From: Candidatus Dojkabacteria bacterium
Lineage (GTDB): Bacteria > Patescibacteriota > Dojkabacteria > J137
Reading direction: 5' to 3'
DNA: 64,000 nt
NCBI GenBank assembly: GCA_040006935.1
Contig: JBDTVZ010000002.1
Span: 43,904-107,903 of the forward strand
Shown: positions 1 through 43,429 of the stretch, in pieces
Layout of the letters: each line of letters starts with the position of its first letter
How positions within the stretch are numbered: the first letter of the stretch is position 1
Notes under the pieces: model-generated
What the model was told of the DNA's origin: nothing
The model's database searches: none
What the model saw: the letters and a program-made list of their open reading frames with translations, nothing else
Position numbers and translations under genes: made by a program

Positions 1-27
1 GGGGTCGCTTCGCTCGCAATGACACTT
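1..27. repeat. Partial copy of the TCGCAATGACA-ending palindromic repeat family
   Basis: gtcgcttcgctcgcaatgacac resembles the gattgcttcgtcgct...tcgcaatgaca motifs at 38656-38692 and 42336-42400. The copy is truncated by the window edge. Confidence 0.4.
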
Positions 28-15083: not shown

Positions 15084-15742
15084 AACAACACCTTATTTTC
15101 CTTAAAACTAAACCAACTATCTTCAGTTACAATTACATGATCTAGTACTTTTATATCTAATAATTCCCCAGCAGCTATCAAAGTTTTGGTTACATCAATA
15201 TCGTTCTCAGATGGGTCTGGGAGATTCGATGGATGATTATGTGCAATTATTATACTTGCTGCAGAATTTTTTATCGCAGATTCGAATACTTCTCGCGGAT
15301 GCACTAAACTTGAGTTTATAGTTCCAATCGAAATTACTTCTTTCTTCACAGCTTGATTTCGTGAATCTAAAAATAAAACTACAAAATGCTCTCTTTTACT
15401 TCTACGGATTTCCGTAAGTTCTTTCCATACATCTTCGGGACTTAAAATAATATTTCGTTTTTTATCTTTCAAAAATCTTTTCCCAATTTCAAAACACGCA
15501 ATAATTTCTACAGACTTGGTTGGACCAATACCTTTAATTTTAGAAATTTTCTGAATACTTAAATTATTTATGTCCTGATTTACGATTTTTACTAACTCCT
15601 TGGAAAGCTCGAGCACGTTTTTACCAGCACGGCCAGTTCGGACTAATATCGCGAATAACTCCTCGTCAGAAAGTTTTTCCGGTCCATATTTTATTAATTT
15701 TTCTCTTGGTCGTTCTATGCGTGGTAAATCTGCAATTTTCAT
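15080..15742 (-). CDS. radC: RadC-family JAB-domain protein
   Basis: HNHPS...D motif (IIIAHNHPSNLPDPSENDIDVTKTL) and N-terminal HhH. Confidence 0.85.
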   Translation of the reverse strand: MKIADLPRIERPREKLIKYGPEKLSDEELFAILVRTGRAGKNVLELSKELVKIVNQDINNLSIQKISKIKGIGPTKSVEIIACFEIGKRFLKDKKRNIILSPEDVWKELTEIRRSKREHFVVLFLDSRNQAVKKEVISIGTINSSLVHPREVFESAIKNSAASIIIAHNHPSNLPDPSENDIDVTKTLIAAGELLDIKVLDHVIVTEDSWFSFKENKVLF

Positions 15743-15851
15743 TCAAAGATAATATCCTGAATTGGGATTTTATGCAAGGAGAAATTATGTTTTCGTTTAA
15801 TTTATAAGAAGGTATTCTGAAGGAATTGAGGGTTATTGCTTCACTAAAGAA

Positions 15852-15871
15852 AGCGACGATTATAATCGTCG
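15852..15871 (-). terminator. Hairpin gcgacgat-tata-atcgtcgc after the pgi stop
   Basis: Perfect 8-bp stem with a flanking A/T run. Lies between the pgi stop (15924) and the radC start. Confidence 0.45.
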
Positions 15872-15923
15872 CCTTCTTCACCCTAATGTTGGATTCCCTT
15901 CATTCTTTAGCTCTCTAATTACT

Positions 15924-18458: not shown

Positions 18459-19484
18459 ATGGCAAAAAGAATTGCAATAAATGGATTCGGAAGAATTGGA
18501 AGACTTGTATTCAGAGCTCTTCTAGAAAGAAACATGTTAGATGGTGAAGTTGAAGTAGTTGCTGTTAACGATTTAGTTCCAGCAGAAAATTTAGCTTATC
18601 TACTAAAGTACGATACTACTCATGGGAAATTAGATATGGATGTAAAAGCCATTGATGATAGTACGATTCAAGTTGGAGATTACAAGATTAAAACTCTTGC
18701 TTTAAAAGCAAATCCATCTGAACTACCTTGGAAAGATTTAAATATTGATATTGTGATTGAATCTACAGGATTCTTTACAAAGAAAGCTGATGCATCCGGA
18801 CATTTAACAGCTGGAGCAAAGAAAGTAATTATTTCAGCACCAAGTGACGAAGATGTAAAAACAATTTTAATGGGAGTAAATCACGAGGAATACCAAGGTG
18901 AAGATTTGATTTCAAATGCAAGCTGTACAACAAACTGCTTAGCACCTGTTGTATATGTCTTACTAAAAGAAGGAATCGGATTTGAAGAAGGTTTAATGAC
19001 AACTGCACATGCATATACTGCATCACAAGCAGTAATGGACGGTCCATCTAAAAAGGCATTTAGAGATGGAAGGGCTGCAGCAATGAACGTTATCCCAGCA
19101 TCTACTGGAGCAGCAAAAGCAATTGGATTAGTCCTACCTGAAGTTAAGGGAAAGTTGACAGGAATGTCTTTTAGAGTTCCCGTATCTGATGTTTCTGTTG
19201 TGGATTTAACATTCAAACCAATAAAGGAGACTAGCTTAGCTGAAATTAATGCAGCGATGAAAAAAGCCAGCGAAACTTATCTAAAAGGTATTTTGAACTA
19301 TACTGAAGAACCCGTAGTTTCTAGTGACTTTATTCATGACCCTGCATCAAGTACTTACGATTCAGGTGCAAGTATTGAATTAAATAGTAAATTCTTTAAA
19401 TTAATTGCTTGGTACGACAATGAATGGGGTTATTCAAATAGAATGGCTGATTTGTTAAAAGTTGTTGTAGAGAAGATGGGTTAA
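18459..19484 (+). CDS. gap: Glyceraldehyde-3-phosphate dehydrogenase
   Basis: INGFGRIGR and active-site SCTTNCLAP. ~340 aa. Confidence 0.92.
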
Positions 19485-19619: not shown

Positions 19620-20612
19620 ATGAACTCATCAATGGGAGATTTAGCTGAGGGCGATAGAAGAAGACCTGTTGAGACAACAACAACTCTAGCTAAAAGAATT
19701 AAAATTATAGATGATTTAATAAACGCTGTTATCTTAAATTTAGAGATATCACAAACAGCTGAAATCGATTCCCATGTATTCTTAACGCATATAAATACCT
19801 TGATGATTTTTTACACTAGCTTATTTAATCAAATGAAATTGGGGTCTTTTGATTTTGATCCCGACCTCTATAGATTAAATGGTCTAATAAACCACGATTT
19901 GAGAAAACCTGTGAATATTATTCAACAATTCACTGATCTCGCATTTATGCCGGGGTTTGAACATGAGTTCCATACTATTCTTAGGAATAATTTAGGAGGA
20001 CTTGTAAAATCTTTTAAGTATATGAAAAGTGCAATTAGGATAATGGATAATATAAATAGATCTAATAGTAAGGAAATACCTGTAACTCTGACTTTAAATT
20101 TGTTAGTAGATTTGCTAAATTTATCTCCTTCCGAACATTCAAACTTGTTTAGTATTATACGAGAGGAAGAACTACTTTTACATTTCTATGCAAGTATGGA
20201 AGCTTCATTAGGTGTTGAAGAGTTTTTTACAGTTAACACCCTTTTACTAAATCTAATAGATACTAATGCTACAAAAGGAGTAGTTACAATAGAAGAGCTA
20301 CATGGATCTCGTATAATAACAATTCACGATGATGCTTGTTTTGAAGGTAAACTTATTTGGCCGCCACATATATTAAAAAAATACGAAGACTATTATTTTG
20401 CAGGTCATCTATATCCTTTCCATGCCTTGAGAGGAAATAGTAATGGTCTTGGTCTAGTGCACATTCTAGCAGGACAAAGACCTAGCAAAAATCTTTTGAA
20501 TTTAGATGAGCCTCCATTCTTGTTTTGTGTAGATGGAAGTACTGAAGATGGTACGATGAAATACATTCAATTAGTTTACCCTGAACCTATCCGGCCGATA
20601 ATGGAATTCTAA
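19620..20612 (+). CDS. Soluble histidine-kinase-like protein (HisKA + HATPase_c), orphan
   Basis: H box NHDLRKPVN, N box LLLNLIDTNATKG, G1-like IHDDACFEG, G2 GNSNGLGLVHILAGQ. No TM helix. No adjacent response regulator. Confidence 0.55.
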   Translation: MNSSMGDLAEGDRRRPVETTTTLAKRIKIIDDLINAVILNLEISQTAEIDSHVFLTHINTLMIFYTSLFNQMKLGSFDFDPDLYRLNGLINHDLRKPVNIIQQFTDLAFMPGFEHEFHTILRNNLGGLVKSFKYMKSAIRIMDNINRSNSKEIPVTLTLNLLVDLLNLSPSEHSNLFSIIREEELLLHFYASMEASLGVEEFFTVNTLLLNLIDTNATKGVVTIEELHGSRIITIHDDACFEGKLIWPPHILKKYEDYYFAGHLYPFHALRGNSNGLGLVHILAGQRPSKNLLNLDEPPFLFCVDGSTEDGTMKYIQLVYPEPIRPIMEF

Positions 20613-20698: not shown

Positions 20699-21982
20699 AT
20701 GTACAATCTAAAAAAAGACTTAGATAAATATTCATACTTAAATATCCAAGATATTGAAAACAAAACTATAATTGTTAGATCTTGTCTAAATGTTGCTGTA
20801 GACAAAGAAGGAAGAATGGAAGATTCTACAAGATTTTATGAATCACTTCCGCTAATAAAAGAACTTGCTGAAAAAGCAAAAAAAGTAATTGTAATGGGAC
20901 ATTTGGGAAGACCAGAAAGAAGAGATAAATCGCTAAGTTTTTGGAATATCGCAGAAGTTTTAACAACGGAGTTAGAAGAGCAAAGAGTTGAAGTTGAATT
21001 AGTAGATTCCCTGGGAAAAATAGGTAAGAAAGAGACGCATAATCCAGAGACGCATAATCTTGATACGCATAATCTTGATACGCATAATCTTGAGACGCAT
21101 AATTATGCGTCTGTAAAGGCACAAAGAAAAAAAATAATATTAATCGATAATATCCGATTTTTCCCAGGAGAAGAGAGTAAAAATAAAGATGTTCGAATGG
21201 CATTTGCAAAAGAATTAGCGAGCCTCGCAGATGTTTTTGTTAACGATGCTTTCGCAGATTATCGAGAATCAGCCTCTACTTATGATATTGCAACATTACT
21301 ACCTAGTTATTTAGGCCCAGTATTTATGAAAGAAGTTGCAGCACTTTCGAAATTTTCACAACCAGAAAGCCCATTTGTTGCAGTTTTAGGAGGAGCAAAA
21401 TTGTCAGAAAAATTGGATGCACTCAATGCATTAGTTCAAATTGCAGATAAAGTAATAATCGGAGGAGCCATGGCCTATACGATAATGAAGGCAATCGGAG
21501 TTGAAACTGGAAATTCATTGATTGAAAAAGATAAATTAGAGATTGCTACAGAAATAATGAATAAATATTCTGAGAAGATCCTCTTACCTGTAGACCATTT
21601 GGTTGCGCAAGAATTTAAATTAAAATCCCCTTATGAATACACAGAGACAGAAGTGGTTCCTGCTGATATGGTTGCAATAGACATTGGCTGGAACTCTATC
21701 AGAAAATTCAAAACAGAAATTTCTAATTCAAAATCTATTTTATGGAATGGTCCAATGGGAGTATTTGAGTGGATACATTCTAGCGTTGGAACAAAAGAGA
21801 TTGGAAGTGCAATTGCTGAGAATACTTCAGCATACTCATTAGCAGGAGGAGGAGATTCAATTGCTGCAATAAATAAATTTAATTTAAGAGGTTTTGACCA
21901 TGTATCTACAGGTGGAGGCGCGATGTTAGCATTTTTGGCATATGATAAATTCCCTACTTTAGATGTTATTTTGAATAAATAA
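20699..21982 (+). CDS. pgk: Phosphoglycerate kinase with an in-frame tandem-repeat insertion
   Basis: PGK motifs (RSCLNV, MGHLGRP, GGGAM...). Insertion peptide ETHNPETHNLDTHNLDTHNLETHN. Confidence 0.9.
   Translation: MYNLKKDLDKYSYLNIQDIENKTIIVRSCLNVAVDKEGRMEDSTRFYESLPLIKELAEKAKKVIVMGHLGRPERRDKSLSFWNIAEVLTTELEEQRVEVELVDSLGKIGKKETHNPETHNLDTHNLDTHNLETHNYASVKAQRKKIILIDNIRFFPGEESKNKDVRMAFAKELASLADVFVNDAFADYRESASTYDIATLLPSYLGPVFMKEVAALSKFSQPESPFVAVLGGAKLSEKLDALNALVQIADKVIIGGAMAYTIMKAIGVETGNSLIEKDKLEIATEIMNKYSEKILLPVDHLVAQEFKLKSPYEYTETEVVPADMVAIDIGWNSIRKFKTEISNSKSILWNGPMGVFEWIHSSVGTKEIGSAIAENTSAYSLAGGGDSIAAINKFNLRGFDHVSTGGGAMLAFLAYDKFPTLDVILNK
21033..21109. repeat. 15-bp x ~5 tandem repeat (gaYacgcataatcNNg) ending in palindrome gacgcataattatgcgtc
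   Basis: Direct repeats are visible. In frame (5 aa per unit) inside pgk. Confidence 0.8.
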
Positions 21983-22419
21983 TGGCTGATAATGGAAAGT
22001 TAGATTTTGATGAGTCTAGAACAACTTTGACAATAGATAGTATAAATGAATTCTTAGATGCTTTGAATATTCCAGAGAAAGATTCAGTTAAAGCGTTAGT
22101 CAACTATTTTTCAACAAATGGTGGAGACTTTGAGGGCCACGAGTCTGGGATTACAGTCCAAGCAAGAATTGGAACTGTAAGGGGAATGCAACTTTATTAT
22201 TTTATCAAACATTTCATGGGGTATGTAAAAAATAACGAAGCAGTAAGACCACTTGTTGAACGAATTTATAGTAAAGTTTTTTTTATTAATCCAGATCTCC
22301 CTATTGAGGAACGTGCTAATAATAAATCGTGGGAAATATTACAAAAAGACGTTATGCTTGTAATTCGCGAATACGCAATGTATGAATTCCGAAAGAATTT
22401 AGAATCTTCAGAACAATAA
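21982..22419 (+). CDS. Hypothetical protein
   Basis: ORF; ATGA overlap with the pgk stop. Confidence 0.35.
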   Translation: MADNGKLDFDESRTTLTIDSINEFLDALNIPEKDSVKALVNYFSTNGGDFEGHESGITVQARIGTVRGMQLYYFIKHFMGYVKNNEAVRPLVERIYSKVFFINPDLPIEERANNKSWEILQKDVMLVIREYAMYEFRKNLESSEQ

Positions 22420-23505
22420 TTACTCTCCAAAATAAACTCCTAACTTCTTTGCAGTATCAAATACTAAGTTATCTTTAGTAATTTTTTTTAGATGTTCTAC
22501 TGCCTTTTCTATTTTTACAGTCTCCATTTTCCCATTTCTATAACACACTAATTCTCCAAATTTTTTATGAATAACTGCATCCATTGCTGCAACCCCATAA
22601 CTTTTTGCCAAAATTCTATCCTCAGCATTTGGAGAACCACCTCTTTGAGTATGTCCTAAAACAACGTTTCTCATTTCGAATTCTCCAGGAGCTAATTCCT
22701 CTATTCTTCTCATAATTTGATCACTAATTCCACCTAATCTAACTTCTGGTCTACCTTCTTTATTCTCTAAAGTTGCGATCTTTTCATTCTTAGCTTTTGC
22801 ACCTTCGCTGACAACTACTACTGAATAATTTCTACCAATTTTTTTTCTCCAAGCTAAATATCTAATTAATCCTTCGTAATCGAATTCAATTTCTGGAATT
22901 AAAATTACATCTGCTCCTCCGGCAAGGCCAGCATATAATGGAATCCAGCCTACATGCCTTCCCATTGTTTCAACAAACATTACTCTATCGTGGCTCACAG
23001 CAGTTGTATGAACTCTATCCAAGGCCTCTACTCCAATTTCTACAGCAGAACTAAAGCCAAAAGTCATGTCAACTAAATCTAAATCATTATCGATTGTTTT
23101 TGGTACTCCAACAATATCAATACCTAAATCAACTAATTGTAATGCTCCACTCAAAGTTCCATCTCCACCAATTACTATTAAAGAATCTATTTTTAAAGTT
23201 TCTAAATTTTTCTTTGCTAAGTTTAAAATGTCATCGGGAATTTTATTAAAATCACCTTCGCTACCACCTTTGCCAGCAAATCGTCCCTTATTAACTGAAT
23301 GTAATATCGTCCCTCCTAAATGGCTGATTCCTCGGATTTGTTCTATTCCTAAATCTATGCACTCCATGTCGAGAATACCTTCCCAACCTTTTATAAAACC
23401 TACAAATTTATAATCTTTAGAAAGACCATATTTTACTATTGAGGCAATTACAGCATTTATAGCTTGGGTATCTCCACCTGAATTCACAATTCCGATTTTT
23501 TTCAT
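22420..23505 (-). CDS. pfk: 6-phosphofructokinase
   Basis: IGIVNSGGDTQAINAV, GGDGTLSGA, MGRHVGW. Confidence 0.85.
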   Translation of the reverse strand: MKKIGIVNSGGDTQAINAVIASIVKYGLSKDYKFVGFIKGWEGILDMECIDLGIEQIRGISHLGGTILHSVNKGRFAGKGGSEGDFNKIPDDILNLAKKNLETLKIDSLIVIGGDGTLSGALQLVDLGIDIVGVPKTIDNDLDLVDMTFGFSSAVEIGVEALDRVHTTAVSHDRVMFVETMGRHVGWIPLYAGLAGGADVILIPEIEFDYEGLIRYLAWRKKIGRNYSVVVVSEGAKAKNEKIATLENKEGRPEVRLGGISDQIMRRIEELAPGEFEMRNVVLGHTQRGGSPNAEDRILAKSYGVAAMDAVIHKKFGELVCYRNGKMETVKIEKAVEHLKKITKDNLVFDTAKKLGVYFGE

Positions 23506-27992: not shown

Positions 27993-30602
27993 ATGACTAG
28001 AAAAAATATATTAACCGTATTAACTGGAATCTTTTTTGTGCTTTTAATTGGAGTTGGAATTTATTTTGCAATCCAAGCAACAAATAACCAAGCCCCTGGT
28101 GATGCCGCAGCTTTAGGATGTTTTCAAAGAAGCTTAGCATGTACAGGTAGTGGTTGTTATTGTGGTTCAAACTATGCAAGTGCCACTTGTAATACTAATG
28201 CGAATGGTTGCAGCCCAGTTGCTGATTGGTGCCAAAGTATAACTTGTAATCCACCGCCACCAGTTCAGCCACCGCCACCGCCACCGCCTCCTAATGCACC
28301 ACCTAATACTCCTCCACCTCCAGCACCTACATGCTATGGATCAGGAAATGCTAATGCCTGTAGTAATCCTGGTCAAGTAGTTCCATATGCAGATTCCAAC
28401 AATATTGTAACTTCATGTACTTGTGCAAGAACTACAGGTACTTTATGCTCCTGTGTGCCAAGTAATGGAACAACATGTATTGCTGATGTTACAGGAACAA
28501 ATTGTGCCTCTAAAGGAGTAGGAGCTTCATGTTCGGCTGGGAATAATGGAACTGGTTATTGTCAATCAACGGGAGTTACAAATGGTAGCTTAAATTGTGC
28601 TTGCCATGTTACAGCAAATGTCCCTCCAGCACCTCCAACAGGTTGTACTTCAGATAGTTCTTGCAATGCAGGTCAGTTTTGTAGTACAAGCAACGGAGTG
28701 TGTGGTGCTAAGCTTGCAAATGGAGTTCAAGGCTGTTCTAGTAATAATATGTGTTTAAGTGGAAGTTGTTCAAATAACTTTTGCGTCGCCACTGCACAAC
28801 CTCCTCCTGCTACAAGTGGCGGTGGAACAACTGGCGGGGCTGCTGCTGGTGCTTCTTGTATATCAAATGCCAATTGCGGAACTGGTTTAGTTTGCCAAGG
28901 TACTAATGGAAGTAAAGTTTGCCAAGTTGCAAGCAATTGTAACGCAAGTAATCCTAGCCAATGTAATTGTAATACTGGAGGTGCAGTTTGTAGCGGATAC
29001 CTAGCTTTCACTTGTAATCAATTAACAAATGGACAATGTTTAAGTAACCCTCAAGATGCCTCTAGCGAGGCAGATGCTACTAGTAAAGCAGGTGTCTGCG
29101 GTCAAGTAGATCAAGTTTGGGTTGGAGGTCCATGTAATAGAACTTTATGCGGTGGATTTACGGTATATAATCAATGTTCCGGCGGTGGCACATCCACAGG
29201 TGGAACAACCGTTACACCTCCGCCACCACCTCCACCACCACCACCTCCTCCTCCTGGCACACCTTATTGTGGAGATTCTCTTTGTGCAACTAATGAACTT
29301 TGCGAAAGGACTGCACCAAATGCAACTACTTACAAAGCATGCACAAGCGCAAGCGGAGTAGCTCCAACAGGATCCGATGTTTCTTTATGTTATGGAGTAG
29401 GATTTAGTCAACCAGTACAATCAAGTACCTGTAAATATTGTGGAGATGGAACTTACACTCCAGGAACAGAACAATGTGATGCATCTGCACCAGCAACTGG
29501 TGGCAATAATCCTGCACAATGTAGTGCATCTTGTACTTTAAATCCTGTTGCTAATGTTTGTATAAGTATGACAGAAAATGGAGTTGATCCAGTACGATCT
29601 GGTACTTCTAACTTTATAGACTATGTATTAGTATTCCAGAATAGTTCAACAAGTAACCCATTCCCTAATATTAGATTATTAGTTTCAACATCAAACACAG
29701 TTGCAACAGCAGTAGGAAGAGATGCGAATAATGTATCTAGTGCGCTAGTAGCACCAATTCCAACTGGAGGTTACACATATGACTCTGTAACATCAAGGCA
29801 TACCTATACCTTCAGATGGGAATCTGTAAGTACAGGTGGAGTTCCTGTTCCAGATGCGAGTTACACTGTAAGAGGATTAACAAATGGGACTGACGGATCT
29901 ATAGTTACAACACCAGCAGAATGTACAGAGAGCATAACTACATCAGCTGCACAGGTACAAGAGCCATTATTTAATATTATTAAAACTGCTGTGGAAACTT
30001 GCGGTGAAGGTACAAATGCTGTAATCAATTATACTGTAACAGTAACTAATGTGGGACCAGTATCTGGAGTAGTGGACTTTGTTACAGATACACTAGATCC
30101 ACTAATAGTTAGCTTGGGAATAACACCAACTAGTATTAATCCCGCATCTGGGAATTATTCTGCAGGTGTAATTACGTGGACTGGTACAGTAGGAGAGAGA
30201 ACATTCACTGCTGGGCAATCTAAGACTTATACTTATACTGTTACTATTCCGTCTAATCAAGTTCTTAACTTTGCAAGTGCTGGTGTACAAAACTTAGCTG
30301 CTGTCCAATACGATACAAATACAACATCTAACAATACTTCCAGCTTTAATTTAAGAACAATGTTAAGTTGTACTATAAATGGTATTCCAATTACTGGAAT
30401 ATTTGATGATGGTAAATTGCTCTTGTTTGGATTAGTATTTATATTCTTAGGATTTGTAGCTTATAGATATCAAATTGGTAAAACAATTTCCGAAAAATTA
30501 ATTTCTGGAGCTTTGAATACTGCAGAAGGTGGCGTTGAAAAATTAATGCCATTTGAAGACAGAATTGAAAGAAAAATGGAAAAAAGAAGAAAGAAAGAAT
30601 AA
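27993..30602 (+). CDS. Large Cys-rich cell-surface protein with poly-Pro linkers, DUF11-like repeat and C-terminal TM anchor
   Basis: N-terminal TM helix; more than 60 Cys; PPPPVQPPPPPPPPNAPP and P13 tracts. DUF11-like NYTVTVTNVGPVSGVVDFVTDTLDP. C-terminal TM helix LLLFGLVFIFLGFVAY. Confidence 0.6.
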   Translation: MTRKNILTVLTGIFFVLLIGVGIYFAIQATNNQAPGDAAALGCFQRSLACTGSGCYCGSNYASATCNTNANGCSPVADWCQSITCNPPPPVQPPPPPPPPNAPPNTPPPPAPTCYGSGNANACSNPGQVVPYADSNNIVTSCTCARTTGTLCSCVPSNGTTCIADVTGTNCASKGVGASCSAGNNGTGYCQSTGVTNGSLNCACHVTANVPPAPPTGCTSDSSCNAGQFCSTSNGVCGAKLANGVQGCSSNNMCLSGSCSNNFCVATAQPPPATSGGGTTGGAAAGASCISNANCGTGLVCQGTNGSKVCQVASNCNASNPSQCNCNTGGAVCSGYLAFTCNQLTNGQCLSNPQDASSEADATSKAGVCGQVDQVWVGGPCNRTLCGGFTVYNQCSGGGTSTGGTTVTPPPPPPPPPPPPPGTPYCGDSLCATNELCERTAPNATTYKACTSASGVAPTGSDVSLCYGVGFSQPVQSSTCKYCGDGTYTPGTEQCDASAPATGGNNPAQCSASCTLNPVANVCISMTENGVDPVRSGTSNFIDYVLVFQNSSTSNPFPNIRLLVSTSNTVATAVGRDANNVSSALVAPIPTGGYTYDSVTSRHTYTFRWESVSTGGVPVPDASYTVRGLTNGTDGSIVTTPAECTESITTSAAQVQEPLFNIIKTAVETCGEGTNAVINYTVTVTNVGPVSGVVDFVTDTLDPLIVSLGITPTSINPASGNYSAGVITWTGTVGERTFTAGQSKTYTYTVTIPSNQVLNFASAGVQNLAAVQYDTNTTSNNTSSFNLRTMLSCTINGIPITGIFDDGKLLLFGLVFIFLGFVAYRYQIGKTISEKLISGALNTAEGGVEKLMPFEDRIERKMEKRRKKE

Positions 30603-34400: not shown

Positions 34401-34411
34401 CCAAATAAAAA

Positions 34412-34431
34412 GGTCCGCCAATTGGCGGACC
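34412..34431 (-). terminator. Perfect palindrome ggtccgcc-aatt-ggcggacc with flanking A/T runs
   Basis: 8-bp GC stem just downstream of the stop of the minus-strand gene at 34455. A/T runs on both sides, so possibly bidirectional. Confidence 0.55.
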
Positions 34432-34454
34432 TCTCTTTTCTCGATTCTCTTTTC

Positions 34455-38341: not shown

Positions 38342-38460
38342 TTGTGTCATTTCGACTGAGGAGCTTAAGCGACGAATGGAGAAATCTTTACCACTGCCCC
38401 ATAATGTCAGAAGGGTGGTACAGATTTCTCGACTCACTTCGTTCGCTCGAAATGACACAA
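38342..38460. mobile_element. MITE-like element (~119 bp) with TIR TTGTGTCATTTCGA / TCGAAATGACACAA
   Basis: Terminal inverted repeats; internal cgacgaatggagaaatctt and ctcacttcgttcg motifs shared with the 42103-42222 and 41431-41540 copies. Confidence 0.6.
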
Positions 38461-38472
38461 TATTGTAATAGT

Positions 38473-38508
38473 CCCCTCTCCTTTTAAGGAGAGGGTTAGG
38501 GTGAGGTC
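38473..38508. repeat. Hairpin cccctctcc-ttttaa-ggagaggg plus gggtgagg
   Basis: Related to 43362-43429 (ccctctcc...ggagaggg, cctcaccc...gggtgagg). Confidence 0.5.
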
Positions 38509-43361: not shown

Positions 43362-43429
43362 CCTCACCCGTCTCTCACTTCGTTCGAGCCACCCTCTCCA
43401 GCAAAGATGGAGAGGGGCTTGGGGTGAGG
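43362..43429. repeat. Nested palindromic element cctcaccc...ccctctcc-agcaaagat-ggagaggg...gggtgagg
   Basis: Nested perfect stems. Shares ctcacttcgttcg with the MITE family. Confidence 0.55.

What the first reader, a model, noticed from the sequence alone, without database searches (positions are those of the whole stretch)
21033..21109. In-frame 15-bp x5 tandem repeat inside phosphoglycerate kinase
Units gaYacgcataatcNNg repeat five times and encode (E/D)THNL x5 within pgk. The array ends in an 18-nt perfect palindrome gacgcataattatgcgtc. This is a potential contingency or variable locus inside a core glycolytic enzyme, or an expansion artefact.
Basis: seen in the sequence. Interest (0 to 1): 0.5.

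Follow-up and report, generated by a model that had tools for sequence, protein, structure and literature searches.

The report
REP-like palindrome array inside pgk
The five-copy repeat inside this bacterium's phosphoglycerate kinase gene looks like an in-frame copy of a small palindromic mobile-type DNA element otherwise found with its transposase in unrelated (Bacteroidota) bacteria, tolerated because it only adds a floppy surface loop to the enzyme.

Summary
Window 21032-21106 holds 5 x 15 nt in frame in a full-length pgk (20699-21982), capped by a perfect palindrome that is 20 nt long, not 18 (21093-21112). The block of 31 codons is absent from all 116 other PGKs aligned, including one 89% identical. 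AlphaFold2 models it as a disordered loop in an otherwise confident PGK fold.

The unit is not a private repeat. The same 12-mer, GAGACGCATAAT, occurs with the same 15-nt period, a variable 3-nt spacer and one inverted copy at the end in about 8 Bacteroidota or unlabelled metagenome loci. There it forms the palindrome GTAGAGACGCATAATTATGCGTCTCTAC. It flanks, and lies in frame inside, REP-associated tyrosine transposase (RAYT) genes. It is also in frame in asd and in a glucosaminidase gene. Only one reading frame of the palindrome is open (VETHNYASL), which fits every coding copy reading ETHN.

Best reading: a degenerate, solitary REP-type insertion whose 5' arm expanded by slippage and which rides as a passenger. 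The window copy lacks the GTAG/CTAC tags. The 64 kb hold no RAYT and no second copy. How a candidate-phyla (Dojkabacteria) genome acquired it is unexplained. A contingency switch is not supported, an assembly artefact is unlikely, and copy-number variation could not be tested.

The parts
20699..21982 (+). pgk ORF (427 aa, stop included), the host gene of the insertion
   Evidence: ORF list. Pfam PGK 1.1e-108. Solved PGKs down to 1.7e-73. AlphaFold2 mean pLDDT 93.2. Foldseek TM 0.8-0.89 to solved PGKs. The source names it MAG phosphoglycerate kinase, Candidatus Dojkabacteria.
21014..21106 (+). Lineage-specific in-frame insertion of 93 nt / 31 codons (GKIGKK + ETHNP ETHNL DTHNL DTHNL ETHNY). The boundaries are ambiguous by about 5 nt: the DNA alignment places the gap at 21019-21111.
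   Evidence: Protein alignment with 15 relatives and DNA alignment with 4 relatives: none has it, including P0002 at 89% identity. It is also absent from all 116 other PGKs in alignment A4 (consensus).
21014..21031 (+). 18-nt non-repeat leader of the insertion (GGAAAAATAGGTAAGAAA). Its first 11 nt belong to an inverted copy of downstream pgk sequence.
21032..21106 (+). Five tandem 15-nt units: a 12-nt core GAKACGCATAAT plus a variable triplet (CCA, CTT, CTT, CTT, TAT). This is an array of the 5' arm and loop of the hairpin.
   Evidence: TRF score 116. The repeat finder family D1. The same core, period and variable triplet occur in L007, L013, L014, L016, L023 and L024.
21093..21112 (.). 20-nt perfect palindrome AGACGCATAATTATGCGTCT, the REP-like hairpin core. 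It matches the REP core GAGACGCATAATTATGCGTCTC at 21 of 22 positions. The GTAG/CTAC feet are replaced by CTTG and GTAA.
   Evidence: As RNA the hairpin folds at -11.3 kcal/mol, z = -3.46. The right arm pairs perfectly (11/11) with units 1, 2 and 5 (I3, I4, I5).
21010..21024 (+). Left arm of a 15-nt inverted repeat (CCTGGGAAAAATAGG) that straddles the left edge of the insertion.
   Evidence: the repeat finder I2, 93% complementary. A 14/15 pair occurs in 1 of 300 dinucleotide shuffles of the flanks.
21154..21168 (+). Right arm of that inverted repeat (CCGATTTTTCCCAGG). It is the conserved pgk codons for (I)RFFPG, so it is ancestral and the probable template of the left arm.
   Evidence: (conserved in all relatives).

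Best explanation
A short palindromic element of the REP type became inserted in frame into a length-tolerant surface loop of the N-terminal domain of PGK, in the lineage leading to this Dojkabacteria genome. REP means repetitive extragenic palindrome, the substrate of RAYT/TnpA-REP HUH transposases. The canonical form of this element is GTAGAGACGCATAATTATGCGTCTCTAC. Its 5' arm plus loop (15 nt) then multiplied to five copies. The likely route is replication slippage, helped by the single 3' arm being able to pair with any of the 5' arms. The palindrome has only one open reading frame, and it is the same in either orientation (VETHNYASL). Copies inside genes would therefore survive only in that frame, which would explain why the array reads (E/D)THNx. 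The product is a PGK with an extra disordered loop of about 31 residues, rich in acidic residues and histidine. The loop sits before strand 144-149, on the side of the parallel sheet away from the substrate site. The insert is most likely a neutral or nearly neutral passenger. At the DNA level it is an in-frame minisatellite that could gain or lose 5-residue units. The window copy has lost, or never had, the GTAG/CTAC tags, and no RAYT lies nearby, so it is probably no longer a transposase substrate. Shown: the array, the insertion, the sequence and architecture match, the RAYT association elsewhere, the single open frame, and the predicted disordered loop. Inferred: insertion by a REP/RAYT-related route or by transfer of such DNA, slippage as the expansion mechanism, and neutrality.
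For: (1) The 93-nt block is absent from all relatives, including one 89% identical.
(2) I scanned public contigs for two consecutive units (20 specified bases; my arithmetic gives about 1 chance hit in the 596 Gb genome set). The scan returned 19 loci. In 10 of them (8 distinct) the match is followed at once by the unsearched inverted arm (A/T/C)ATGCGTCTCTAC, giving GTAGAGACGCATAAT(n)+TATGCGTCTCTAC. These loci are L007, L008=L021, L010=L012, L013, L014, L016, L023 and L024. The labelled ones are Bacteroidales, Bacteroidetes and Porphyromonadaceae MAGs.
(3) L014 carries 8 tandem 15-mers (CCT GAGACGCATAAT) capped by the palindrome. They encode (PETHN)x8 and then YASL.
(4) In L013, L014 and L026 the host gene is a RAYT relative: NCBIfam REP_Tyr_transpos 5.9e-15 (55.4 bits, below the curated cut-off of 80), PDB 4er8 TnpArep 2e-5, and source names such as 'REP element-mobilizing transposase RayT'. 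The gene is flanked by further copies of the same palindrome: L014 at 51, 139 and 965; L013 at 4041, 4129 and 4233; L026 at 215 and 2776.
(5) Of 116 homologues of that RAYT, 89 carry a hairpin-encoded xTxNxASL motif at the same site and 32 carry 2-6 tandem 5-residue units before it. In a Mucilaginibacter MAG (L025) the DNA shows the same 15-nt arm array plus hairpin (ETQN variant) and 7 further hairpins, 6 of them around the gene.
(6) The element lies in frame, in the ETHN frame, in unrelated genes: asd in L007 and glucosaminidase/LysM in L024.
(7) Frames 2 and 3 of the palindrome contain TAG and TAA (read directly from the sequence).
(8) AlphaFold2: mean pLDDT 93 overall. Residue blocks 111-140 average 48-52, with no secondary structure between strands 97-102 and 144-149. 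The fold is PGK. Residues that are invariant across the 117 aligned PGKs (for example R27, R45, H68, R71, R153) are present in the window protein.
(9) Intragenic REPs that add 20-80 residues to known proteins are documented (Di Nocera et al. 2013, PMC3733652).
Against: The window copy lacks the GTAG and CTAC tags (it has CTTG... and ...GTAA). Those tags are needed for cleavage in all three RAYT systems tested (PMC8266576).

No RAYT is detectable in the 64 kb (tblastn; hmmsearch). No second copy of the motif is present.

About 78 kb from other Dojkabacteria (L001-L005, L027-L029) also lack both the GAGACGC...GCGTCTC hairpin and a RAYT.

REP families are usually lineage-specific, so a near-identical core in a candidate-phyla bacterium and in Bacteroidota needs horizontal transfer or something not yet understood.

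The 18-nt leader of the insertion is not part of the element. It seems to come from a local template switch, so the insertion had more than one step.

The RAYT match falls below NCBIfam's curated cut-off, and most RAYT loci have no taxon label.
Confidence: 0.65

Rival explanations
1. The array and palindrome arose in place, by local replication errors alone. A template switch created an inverted copy and slippage multiplied it. The resemblance to the Bacteroidota REP would then be coincidence or convergence.
For: The left edge of the insertion is a 14/15 inverted copy of the downstream pgk codons for IRFFPG. Only 1 of 300 shuffles gives such a pair, so template switching did act here. The window holds no RAYT and no other copy. 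Relatives have GTAGATAC (codons V-D-T) about 20 nt upstream, which faintly resembles the GTAGAGAC head.
Against: The window shares a 21/22 match to the REP core. It also shares the same 15-nt period, the same variable-triplet position and the same single terminal inverted arm. My estimate is that a given 22-mer matched at 21 or more positions is expected about 5e-7 times in 64 kb. The inverted arm was not part of the search pattern, yet it follows the match in 10 of 19 hits.
Confidence: 0.12
2. The loop is functional and selected. It could be a histidine- and acid-rich metal-binding or interaction loop, or a length-variable (contingency-like) region of a moonlighting PGK.
For: The loop holds five His and five Asp/Glu in 25 residues. 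The array is kept in frame in an intact, probably essential gene. Tandem units allow rapid length change.
Against: No other PGK among 116 has the loop. Differences between units are non-synonymous (E/D, P/L), so there is no sign of constraint. The loop is predicted disordered and has no Pfam family. The same peptide appears in a transposase, in asd and in a glucosaminidase, which argues against a PGK-specific role. The ETHN frame is the only one without stops. A 15-nt unit cannot switch expression on and off. No allele data exist.
Confidence: 0.1
3. It is an assembly, amplification or chimera artefact of the metagenome-assembled genome.
For: The genome is a MAG. Only one contig carries this protein, and the reads cannot be inspected here. 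Bacteroidota carrying the element might share the sample.
Against: The insert is exactly 31 codons, in frame, and flanked on both sides by colinear pgk on a 299-kb contig. A chimera would need shared k-mers on both sides. The units differ from one another, so the 75-nt array can be resolved by ordinary reads. The left edge carries a local template-switch signature.
Confidence: 0.05

Closest known systems
GTAG-tagged REPs / REPINs mobilised by RAYT (TnpA-REP) HUH transposases, including intragenic REPs (Di Nocera et al. 2013, PMC3733652; Corneloup et al. 2021, PMC8266576)
   Same: Both are short perfect palindromes. The core matches, at 21 of 22 positions, a palindrome that flanks RAYT genes in Bacteroidota loci. 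It is inserted inside a known gene, adds a few tens of residues, and is absent from orthologues.
   Different: The window copy lacks GTAG/CTAC. It is solitary in 64 kb, with no RAYT nearby. The tandem units are half-elements (5' arm plus loop) capped by one inverted arm, not whole REPs in head-to-tail or inverted pairs. The host is a candidate-phyla bacterium, whereas all labelled carriers are Bacteroidota.
Rickettsia palindromic elements (RPE) inserted in frame in protein-coding genes (Ogata et al. 2000, from my own knowledge; mentioned in PMC3733652)
   Same: Both are selfish palindromic DNA tolerated in frame in housekeeping genes, at sites compatible with the protein fold.
   Different: RPEs are 100-150 bp, occur many times per genome and are not arm arrays. 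Here the core is 20-28 nt, with a 15-nt tandem expansion, and only a single copy was seen.
In-frame coding minisatellites / variable-number tandem repeats and contingency loci (review PMC3899988, seen in the listing only; otherwise my own knowledge)
   Same: Both are head-to-tail units that are multiples of 3 nt inside an ORF and are expected to change copy number by slippage.
   Different: There is no frame switching and no surface or antigenic protein. The units are only 92% alike. No polymorphism data exist. The origin is a mobile-type palindrome rather than local duplication alone.
Quasipalindrome / template-switch mutations (my own knowledge)
   Same: The left boundary of the insertion is an inverted copy of nearby sequence, and the array ends in a perfect palindrome.
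   Different: Template switching alone does not explain the identity with a REP found elsewhere.

Membership tests
REP / REPIN (RAYT-associated palindromic repeat) | Short (20-40 bp) palindrome able to form a hairpin | tested here: met
   There is a 20-nt perfect palindrome at 21093-21112. Its RNA hairpin folds at -11.3 kcal/mol, z = -3.46. As DNA, the whole array is not more stable than shuffles.
REP / REPIN (RAYT-associated palindromic repeat) | Conserved GTAG tetranucleotide at the foot of the hairpin (CTAC on the other side) | tested here: not met
   The window has CTTG|AGACGC... and ...GCGTCT|GTAA. Bacteroidota copies have GTAG...CTAC. GTAG is needed for cleavage in vitro (PMC8266576).
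REP / REPIN (RAYT-associated palindromic repeat) | Many dispersed copies in the same genome | tested here: not met
   Only this one locus occurs in the 64-kb window. The other ~235 kb of the contig and the rest of the MAG could not be read.
REP / REPIN (RAYT-associated palindromic repeat) | Cognate RAYT gene in the genome, flanked by the REPs | tested here: inconclusive
   None is found in the window (tblastn best E = 4.6; profile hmmsearch best E = 3.1). None is found in about 78 kb of other Dojkabacteria. The rest of the genome is not available.
REP / REPIN (RAYT-associated palindromic repeat) | Sequence match to a palindrome shown to accompany a RAYT | tested here: met
   The window matches GAGACGCATAATTATGCGTCTC at 21 of 22 positions. 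That sequence flanks, and sits inside, RAYT-like genes in L013, L014 and L026.
Contingency (phase-variable) locus | A change in repeat number switches the reading frame or promoter spacing | tested here: not met
   The unit is 15 nt (5 codons) and lies inside the ORF.
Contingency (phase-variable) locus | Copy-number polymorphism within populations | not testable with these tools
   The protein cluster has one member on one contig. The exact-protein contig look-up found nothing. No reads are available.
Phosphoglycerate kinase (PF00162) | Full-length two-domain PGK with conserved substrate-binding residues | tested here: met
   Pfam PGK 1e-108 covers 5-376 of 379 positions. Residues invariant across 117 aligned PGKs are present, including R27, R45, H68, R71, R153 and the GGG/GGGA motifs. 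The AlphaFold2 model and Foldseek confirm the fold.
In-frame selfish palindromic insertion (RPE-like) | Insertion absent from orthologues, in frame, at a surface site compatible with the fold | tested here: met
Pentapeptide repeat protein (PF00805) / GETHR repeat (PF05671) | Match to the family profile | tested here: not met
   The window insert has no Pfam hit. Only the 8-unit L014 protein touches GETHR, at 21.7 bits against a cut-off of 22.4.

The most novel reading that the evidence does not exclude
The pgk insert is a trace of a Bacteroidota-type REP/RAYT system acting in, or donating DNA to, a candidate-phyla (Dojkabacteria) cell. It would then be a marker of cross-phylum DNA flow, perhaps between an episymbiont and a Sphingobacteriia-like host. 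More generally, '5'-arm arrays capped by one inverted arm' would be a previously undescribed, mechanistically specific product of REP hairpins, made by RAYT nicking and re-priming or by hairpin-assisted slippage. That process would seed pentapeptide minisatellites in essential genes and inside the RAYT genes themselves.
Probability: 0.25. Interest if true: 0.75.

Novelty: new variant of a known kind. Interest (0 to 1): 0.55.

Why it matters
Intragenic REPs and Rickettsia palindromic elements already show that selfish palindromes can live inside genes. Three things are new here.
- A core glycolytic gene of a streamlined candidate-phyla genome carries such an element.
- Its core is nearly identical to a REP that accompanies RAYT transposases in a different phylum.
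- There is a recurrent architecture that I did not find described in the papers I searched: a tandem array of the 5' arm (15 nt, 5 codons) closed by one inverted arm. It is seen in pgk, and in about a quarter (32 of 116) of one RAYT family at a fixed in-frame site.

If the architecture is a direct product of RAYT chemistry or of hairpin-assisted slippage, it gives a readable footprint of REP activity. It would also be a route by which mobile palindromes create repeat-containing protein loops. If the element was transferred, it could hint at the unknown partners of Dojkabacteria. For PGK itself the insert is probably harmless decoration.

Tried and rejected
- **Word-indexed peptide search.** A 40-aa ETHN consensus found no candidate sharing three words.
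- **Exhaustive HMMER search.** The window peptide against 1.84 billion representatives gave 32 hits. All are unrelated low-complexity THNL/SHSQ-type repeats, and none carries ETHNYASL.
- **Viral contigs.** The 22-mer palindrome has no match.
- **Rfam.** Nothing reaches the gathering score anywhere in the window.
- **Pfam on the insert.** No hit. I rejected the idea of a pentapeptide-repeat beta-helix: only five units, a bulky His where the family has Ala, and no profile match.
- **Xer/dif-like site.** I considered an 11-6-11 reading from memory and dropped it. Aligning on the GCGCATAA-like arms leaves no central spacer, and the RAYT association explains the sequence better.
- **DNA folding of the whole insert.** -8.5 kcal/mol, z = -0.26, no better than shuffles. 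Only the terminal hairpin stands out.
- **Allele and copy-number variants.** The exact-protein contig look-up found nothing, and the cluster has one member.
- **RAYT or extra copies in Dojkabacteria.** None in the window and none in about 78 kb from relatives.
- **Taxon of the low-GC carrier L016.** No names on record.
- **Other GC-rich palindromes in the window** (15853-15872, 34411-34432). They lie outside the listed ORFs of 60 aa or more, apart from a 71-aa GTG ORF (15666-15881) over the first, and are unrelated in sequence.
- **Literature strings.** ETQNIASL, ETHNYASL, GAGACGCATAAT, ETQNFASL and RDAKFCVST occur in no paper. GTAGAGACGCA occurs only in unrelated papers. These strings are also absent from the supplements of Di Nocera 2013.
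Full report
**1. The observation.**
Window 21032-21106 contains five head-to-tail 15-nt units: GAGACGCATAATCCA, GAGACGCATAATCTT, GATACGCATAATCTT (twice) and GAGACGCATAATTAT. Tandem Repeats Finder scores the array 116, with 92% matches and no indels. That is the best of 72 rows in the window; the next best scores 70. The array lies in frame in ORF 20699-21982 (+), 427 aa. This ORF is a full-length phosphoglycerate kinase: Pfam PGK 1e-108 and solved PGKs down to 1.7e-73. It encodes ETHNP-ETHNL-DTHNL-DTHNL-ETHNY. The array ends in a perfect palindrome of 20 nt, not 18: AGACGCATAA|TTATGCGTCT, at 21093-21112. The right arm pairs perfectly (11/11) with units 1, 2 and 5. The 13-mer occurs nowhere else in the 64 kb.

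**2. The source organism, and evidence that this is an insertion.**
The protein is identical to NCBI MEP7103613.1, 'MAG: phosphoglycerate kinase [Candidatus Dojkabacteria bacterium]', on a 299-kb contig. The window has 33.7% G+C. pgk sits in a glycolytic cluster: gap at 18459-19484 and pfk at 22420-23505 on the minus strand. Relatives keep the same gene order.

The closest PGKs are 395-396 aa long. In protein and DNA alignments they lack exactly 31 codons, GKIGKK(ETHNx)5 ending in Y. This holds for P0002 at 89% identity and for P0003-P0007 at 77-80%. None of the 116 other PGKs aligned has the block. More distant Dojkabacteria PGKs differ in length at this spot, so the site tolerates indels.

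**3. Effect on the protein.**
The AlphaFold2 model, built with the 117-sequence alignment, has mean pLDDT 93.2 and pTM 0.89. The only poor stretch is residue blocks 111-140, which average 48-52. There is no secondary structure between strand 97-102 and strand 144-149. The model superposes on solved PGKs with TM 0.8-0.89. Residues that are invariant across the alignment (R27, R45, H68, R71, R153 and others) are all present.

The insert precedes the N-terminal end of a strand of the parallel sheet. In alpha/beta folds of this kind, ligands bind at the C-terminal edge of the strands. It follows from that general rule that the loop points away from the 3-phosphoglycerate site. The enzyme is therefore most likely active, with an added floppy loop.

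**4. What the repeat is.**
I scanned public contigs for two consecutive units, ACGCATAATNNNGANACGCATAAT. The pattern has 20 specified bases; my arithmetic gives about one chance match in the 596-Gb genome collection. The scan gave 6 genome loci and 13 metagenome loci.

Some hits are chance, such as His-rich or simple-repeat coding DNA. In ten loci (eight distinct) the match is followed at once by a feature that was not in the pattern: the inverted arm. These loci read GTAGAGACGCATAAT-(NNN GAGACGCATAAT)n-(T/A/C)ATGCGTCTCTAC. They are L007, L008=L021, L010=L012, L013, L014, L016, L023 and L024. This is the window's architecture: the same 12-nt core, the same 15-nt period, a variable triplet at the same position, and one terminal inverted arm. 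The window matches the 22-nt core GAGACGCATAATTATGCGTCTC at 21 positions. The labelled carriers are Bacteroidales, Bacteroidetes and Porphyromonadaceae MAGs.

**5. Association with a transposase.**
In L014 the array has eight units and lies in frame in a 233-aa ORF, giving ...NQN(PETHN)x8 YASLQK.... With the insert removed, that protein matches NCBIfam 'REP-associated tyrosine transposase' at 5.9e-15. The score of 55 bits is below the curated cut-off of 80. It also matches E. coli TnpA-REP (PDB 4er8) at 2e-5.

Its database relatives are named 'REP element-mobilizing transposase RayT' or 'transposase [Mucilaginibacter ...]'. The genes are flanked by more copies of the same palindrome: L014 at 51, 139 and 965; L013 at 4041, 4129 and 4233; L026 at 215 and 2776. 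This is the classical arrangement of a RAYT with its REPs.

Among 116 homologues, 89 carry a hairpin-encoded xTxNxASL motif at one fixed site after the motif HYFG. Mostly it is ETQNIASL; a sub-group has ETHNYASL. Of the 116, 32 have two to six tandem 5-residue units in front of it. In a Mucilaginibacter MAG (L025) the DNA confirms a 15-nt arm array ending in GAGACGCAAAATATTGCGTCTCTAC inside the gene. Seven further hairpins are present, six of them around the gene.

**6. Why the array reads ETHN.**
The palindrome read in frame 1 gives V-E-T-H-N-Y-A-S-L. Frame 2 starts with TAG and frame 3 meets TAA (read directly from the sequence). Because the element is its own reverse complement, either orientation gives the same peptide. 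This fits a simple filter: only insertions in that frame leave a gene intact.

Every coding copy found is in that frame: pgk here, asd in L007 (VETHNLETHNNASL), a glucosaminidase/LysM gene in L024 (VETHNAETHNHASL), and the RAYTs. A peptide shared by such unrelated proteins argues against a PGK-specific function.

**7. How the window copy differs from a bona fide REP.**
Its feet are CTTG and GTAA instead of GTAG and CTAC. In the three RAYT systems studied in vitro, mutations in GTAG reduce or abolish cleavage (PMC8266576).
- The 64 kb contain no RAYT: tblastn best E = 4.6 and profile search best E = 3.1.
- They contain no other copy of the motif.
- About 78 kb from other Dojkabacteria also have neither.

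I therefore do not file it as an active member of a REP family of this genome. It is a solitary, probably immobile copy. L016, a 33% G+C metagenome contig of unknown taxon, carries the canonical element after gyrB. The element may thus not be confined to typical 44-50% G+C Bacteroidota, but I could not name that organism.

**8. Origin and expansion (inference).**
The insertion has two parts. The first is an 18-nt leader, GGAAAAATAGGTAAGAAA. Its start, together with the preceding CCTG, forms a 14/15 inverted copy of the conserved downstream codons for IRFFPG (21154-21168). Only 1 of 300 dinucleotide shuffles gives such a pair. This is the signature of a template switch, so replication errors did act at this site.

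The second part is the element itself. Units 3 and 4 are identical, unit 2 differs from them by one base, and unit 1 differs from unit 2 by two more. This pattern fits successive slippage events followed by point changes. The single right arm can pair with any left arm, and the low frequency of the minimum-energy structure in the ensemble hints at several registers. That should stabilise slipped intermediates.

A direct role of a RAYT is an alternative way to add arms, because a RAYT nicks next to the hairpin and leaves a 3'-OH that can prime synthesis (PMC8266576). It would explain why such arrays are common next to RAYTs. I could not test it.

**9. Rival explanations.**
- **Purely local origin with a coincidental match (about 0.12).** It is supported only by the template-switch signature and the absence of other copies. 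The detailed architectural identity with the REP loci contradicts it.
- **A selected functional loop or contingency-like region (about 0.1).** The loop is His- and acid-rich and the gene is intact. Against this: no conservation, non-synonymous differences between units, predicted disorder, the same peptide in unrelated proteins, and no possibility of frame switching.
- **Assembly artefact (about 0.05).** It cannot be excluded without reads. It is unlikely for an exact 31-codon insert between colinear pgk flanks whose units differ from one another.

**10. Relation to what is known, and novelty.**
REPs inside coding regions that add 20-80 residues, and the in-frame Rickettsia palindromic elements, are documented (PMC3733652). 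The general kind is therefore known. Three things are not reported in the papers I could search:
- this palindrome family;
- its presence in frame inside its own RAYT genes at a fixed site;
- the 'array of 5' arms capped by one inverted arm', and its occurrence in a candidate-phyla genome with a core nearly identical to that of Bacteroidota.

I rate it a new variant of a known kind and give it moderate interest of 0.55. The feature itself is probably a harmless passenger in PGK. The cross-phylum identity and the recurrent array architecture are unexplained and testable.

**11. Limits.**
- Only 64 kb of the genome were available, and no reads or alleles could be examined.
- The genome and metagenome scans were single-shot and required two exact units, so single-unit copies elsewhere were not surveyed.
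- Most carrier loci have no taxonomic label.
- The RAYT assignment rests on sub-threshold but consistent profile matches plus source annotations.

Noticed in passing
L013:4278-4904(-), L014:256-957(-), L025:10001-10795(+), L026:228-953(+); alignment A3: RAYT-like transposase genes of Mucilaginibacter-like Bacteroidota carry their own REP hairpin in frame at one fixed site (after HYFG). It reads ETQNIASL or ETHNYASL and is often preceded by 2-8 tandem 5-codon arm units. 89 of 116 homologues have the motif and 32 have arrays. Protein length varies from 178 to 264 aa because of it.
   Followed up: partly
L007:1260-2342(+) and L024:1782-2864(+): The same palindrome with one extra arm is in frame in an aspartate-semialdehyde dehydrogenase (VETHNLETHNNASL) and in a glucosaminidase/LysM protein (VETHNAETHNHASL) of Bacteroidota MAGs or metagenomes.
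   Followed up: partly
window 21010-21024 and 21154-21168: A 14/15 inverted repeat brackets the array. The right arm is the conserved pgk codons for IRFFPG, and the left arm is at the insertion's left edge. Only 1 of 300 shuffles gives such a pair, which suggests a template-switch event.
   Followed up: yes
window 9-23, 38438-38506, 43362-43429: GC-rich motifs stand out in this 34% G+C DNA: TTCG(N)TCG...AATGAC next to CCCTCTCC-loop-GGAGAGGG hairpins, followed by GG(G/T)GAGG. From memory, similar strings recur in intergenic DNA of many phyla. They may be another class of REP-like or terminator hairpins.
   Followed up: no
window 15853-15872 and 34411-34432: Two perfect palindromes, GCGACGATTATAATCGTCGC and AGGTCCGCCAATTGGCGGACCT, lie between same-strand genes and are probably terminators. 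The first has GACG...CGTC ends like the pgk palindrome but is otherwise unrelated, and a 71-aa GTG ORF (15666-15881) overlaps it.
   Followed up: partly
window 19620-20612(+) and 21982-22419(+): Two ORFs without any Pfam match sit inside the glycolytic cluster: 330 aa between gap and pgk, and 145 aa starting on pgk's stop codon. ORFs without a Pfam match occupy the same positions in relatives, with very different lengths (293-432 aa and 128-163 aa).
   Followed up: no
window 28268-28288 and 29215-29255: Other short tandem repeats whose periods are multiples of three: (GCCACC)x3.5 and a CACCTC/CACCACCTC array. I did not examine them.
   Followed up: no
L016:3376-3418: A 33% G+C metagenome contig of unknown taxon carries the canonical element (GTAAAGACGCATAAT GTAGAGACGCATAAT TATGCGTCTCTAC) just downstream of gyrB. 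This hints that carriers are not limited to mid-G+C Bacteroidota.
   Followed up: partly
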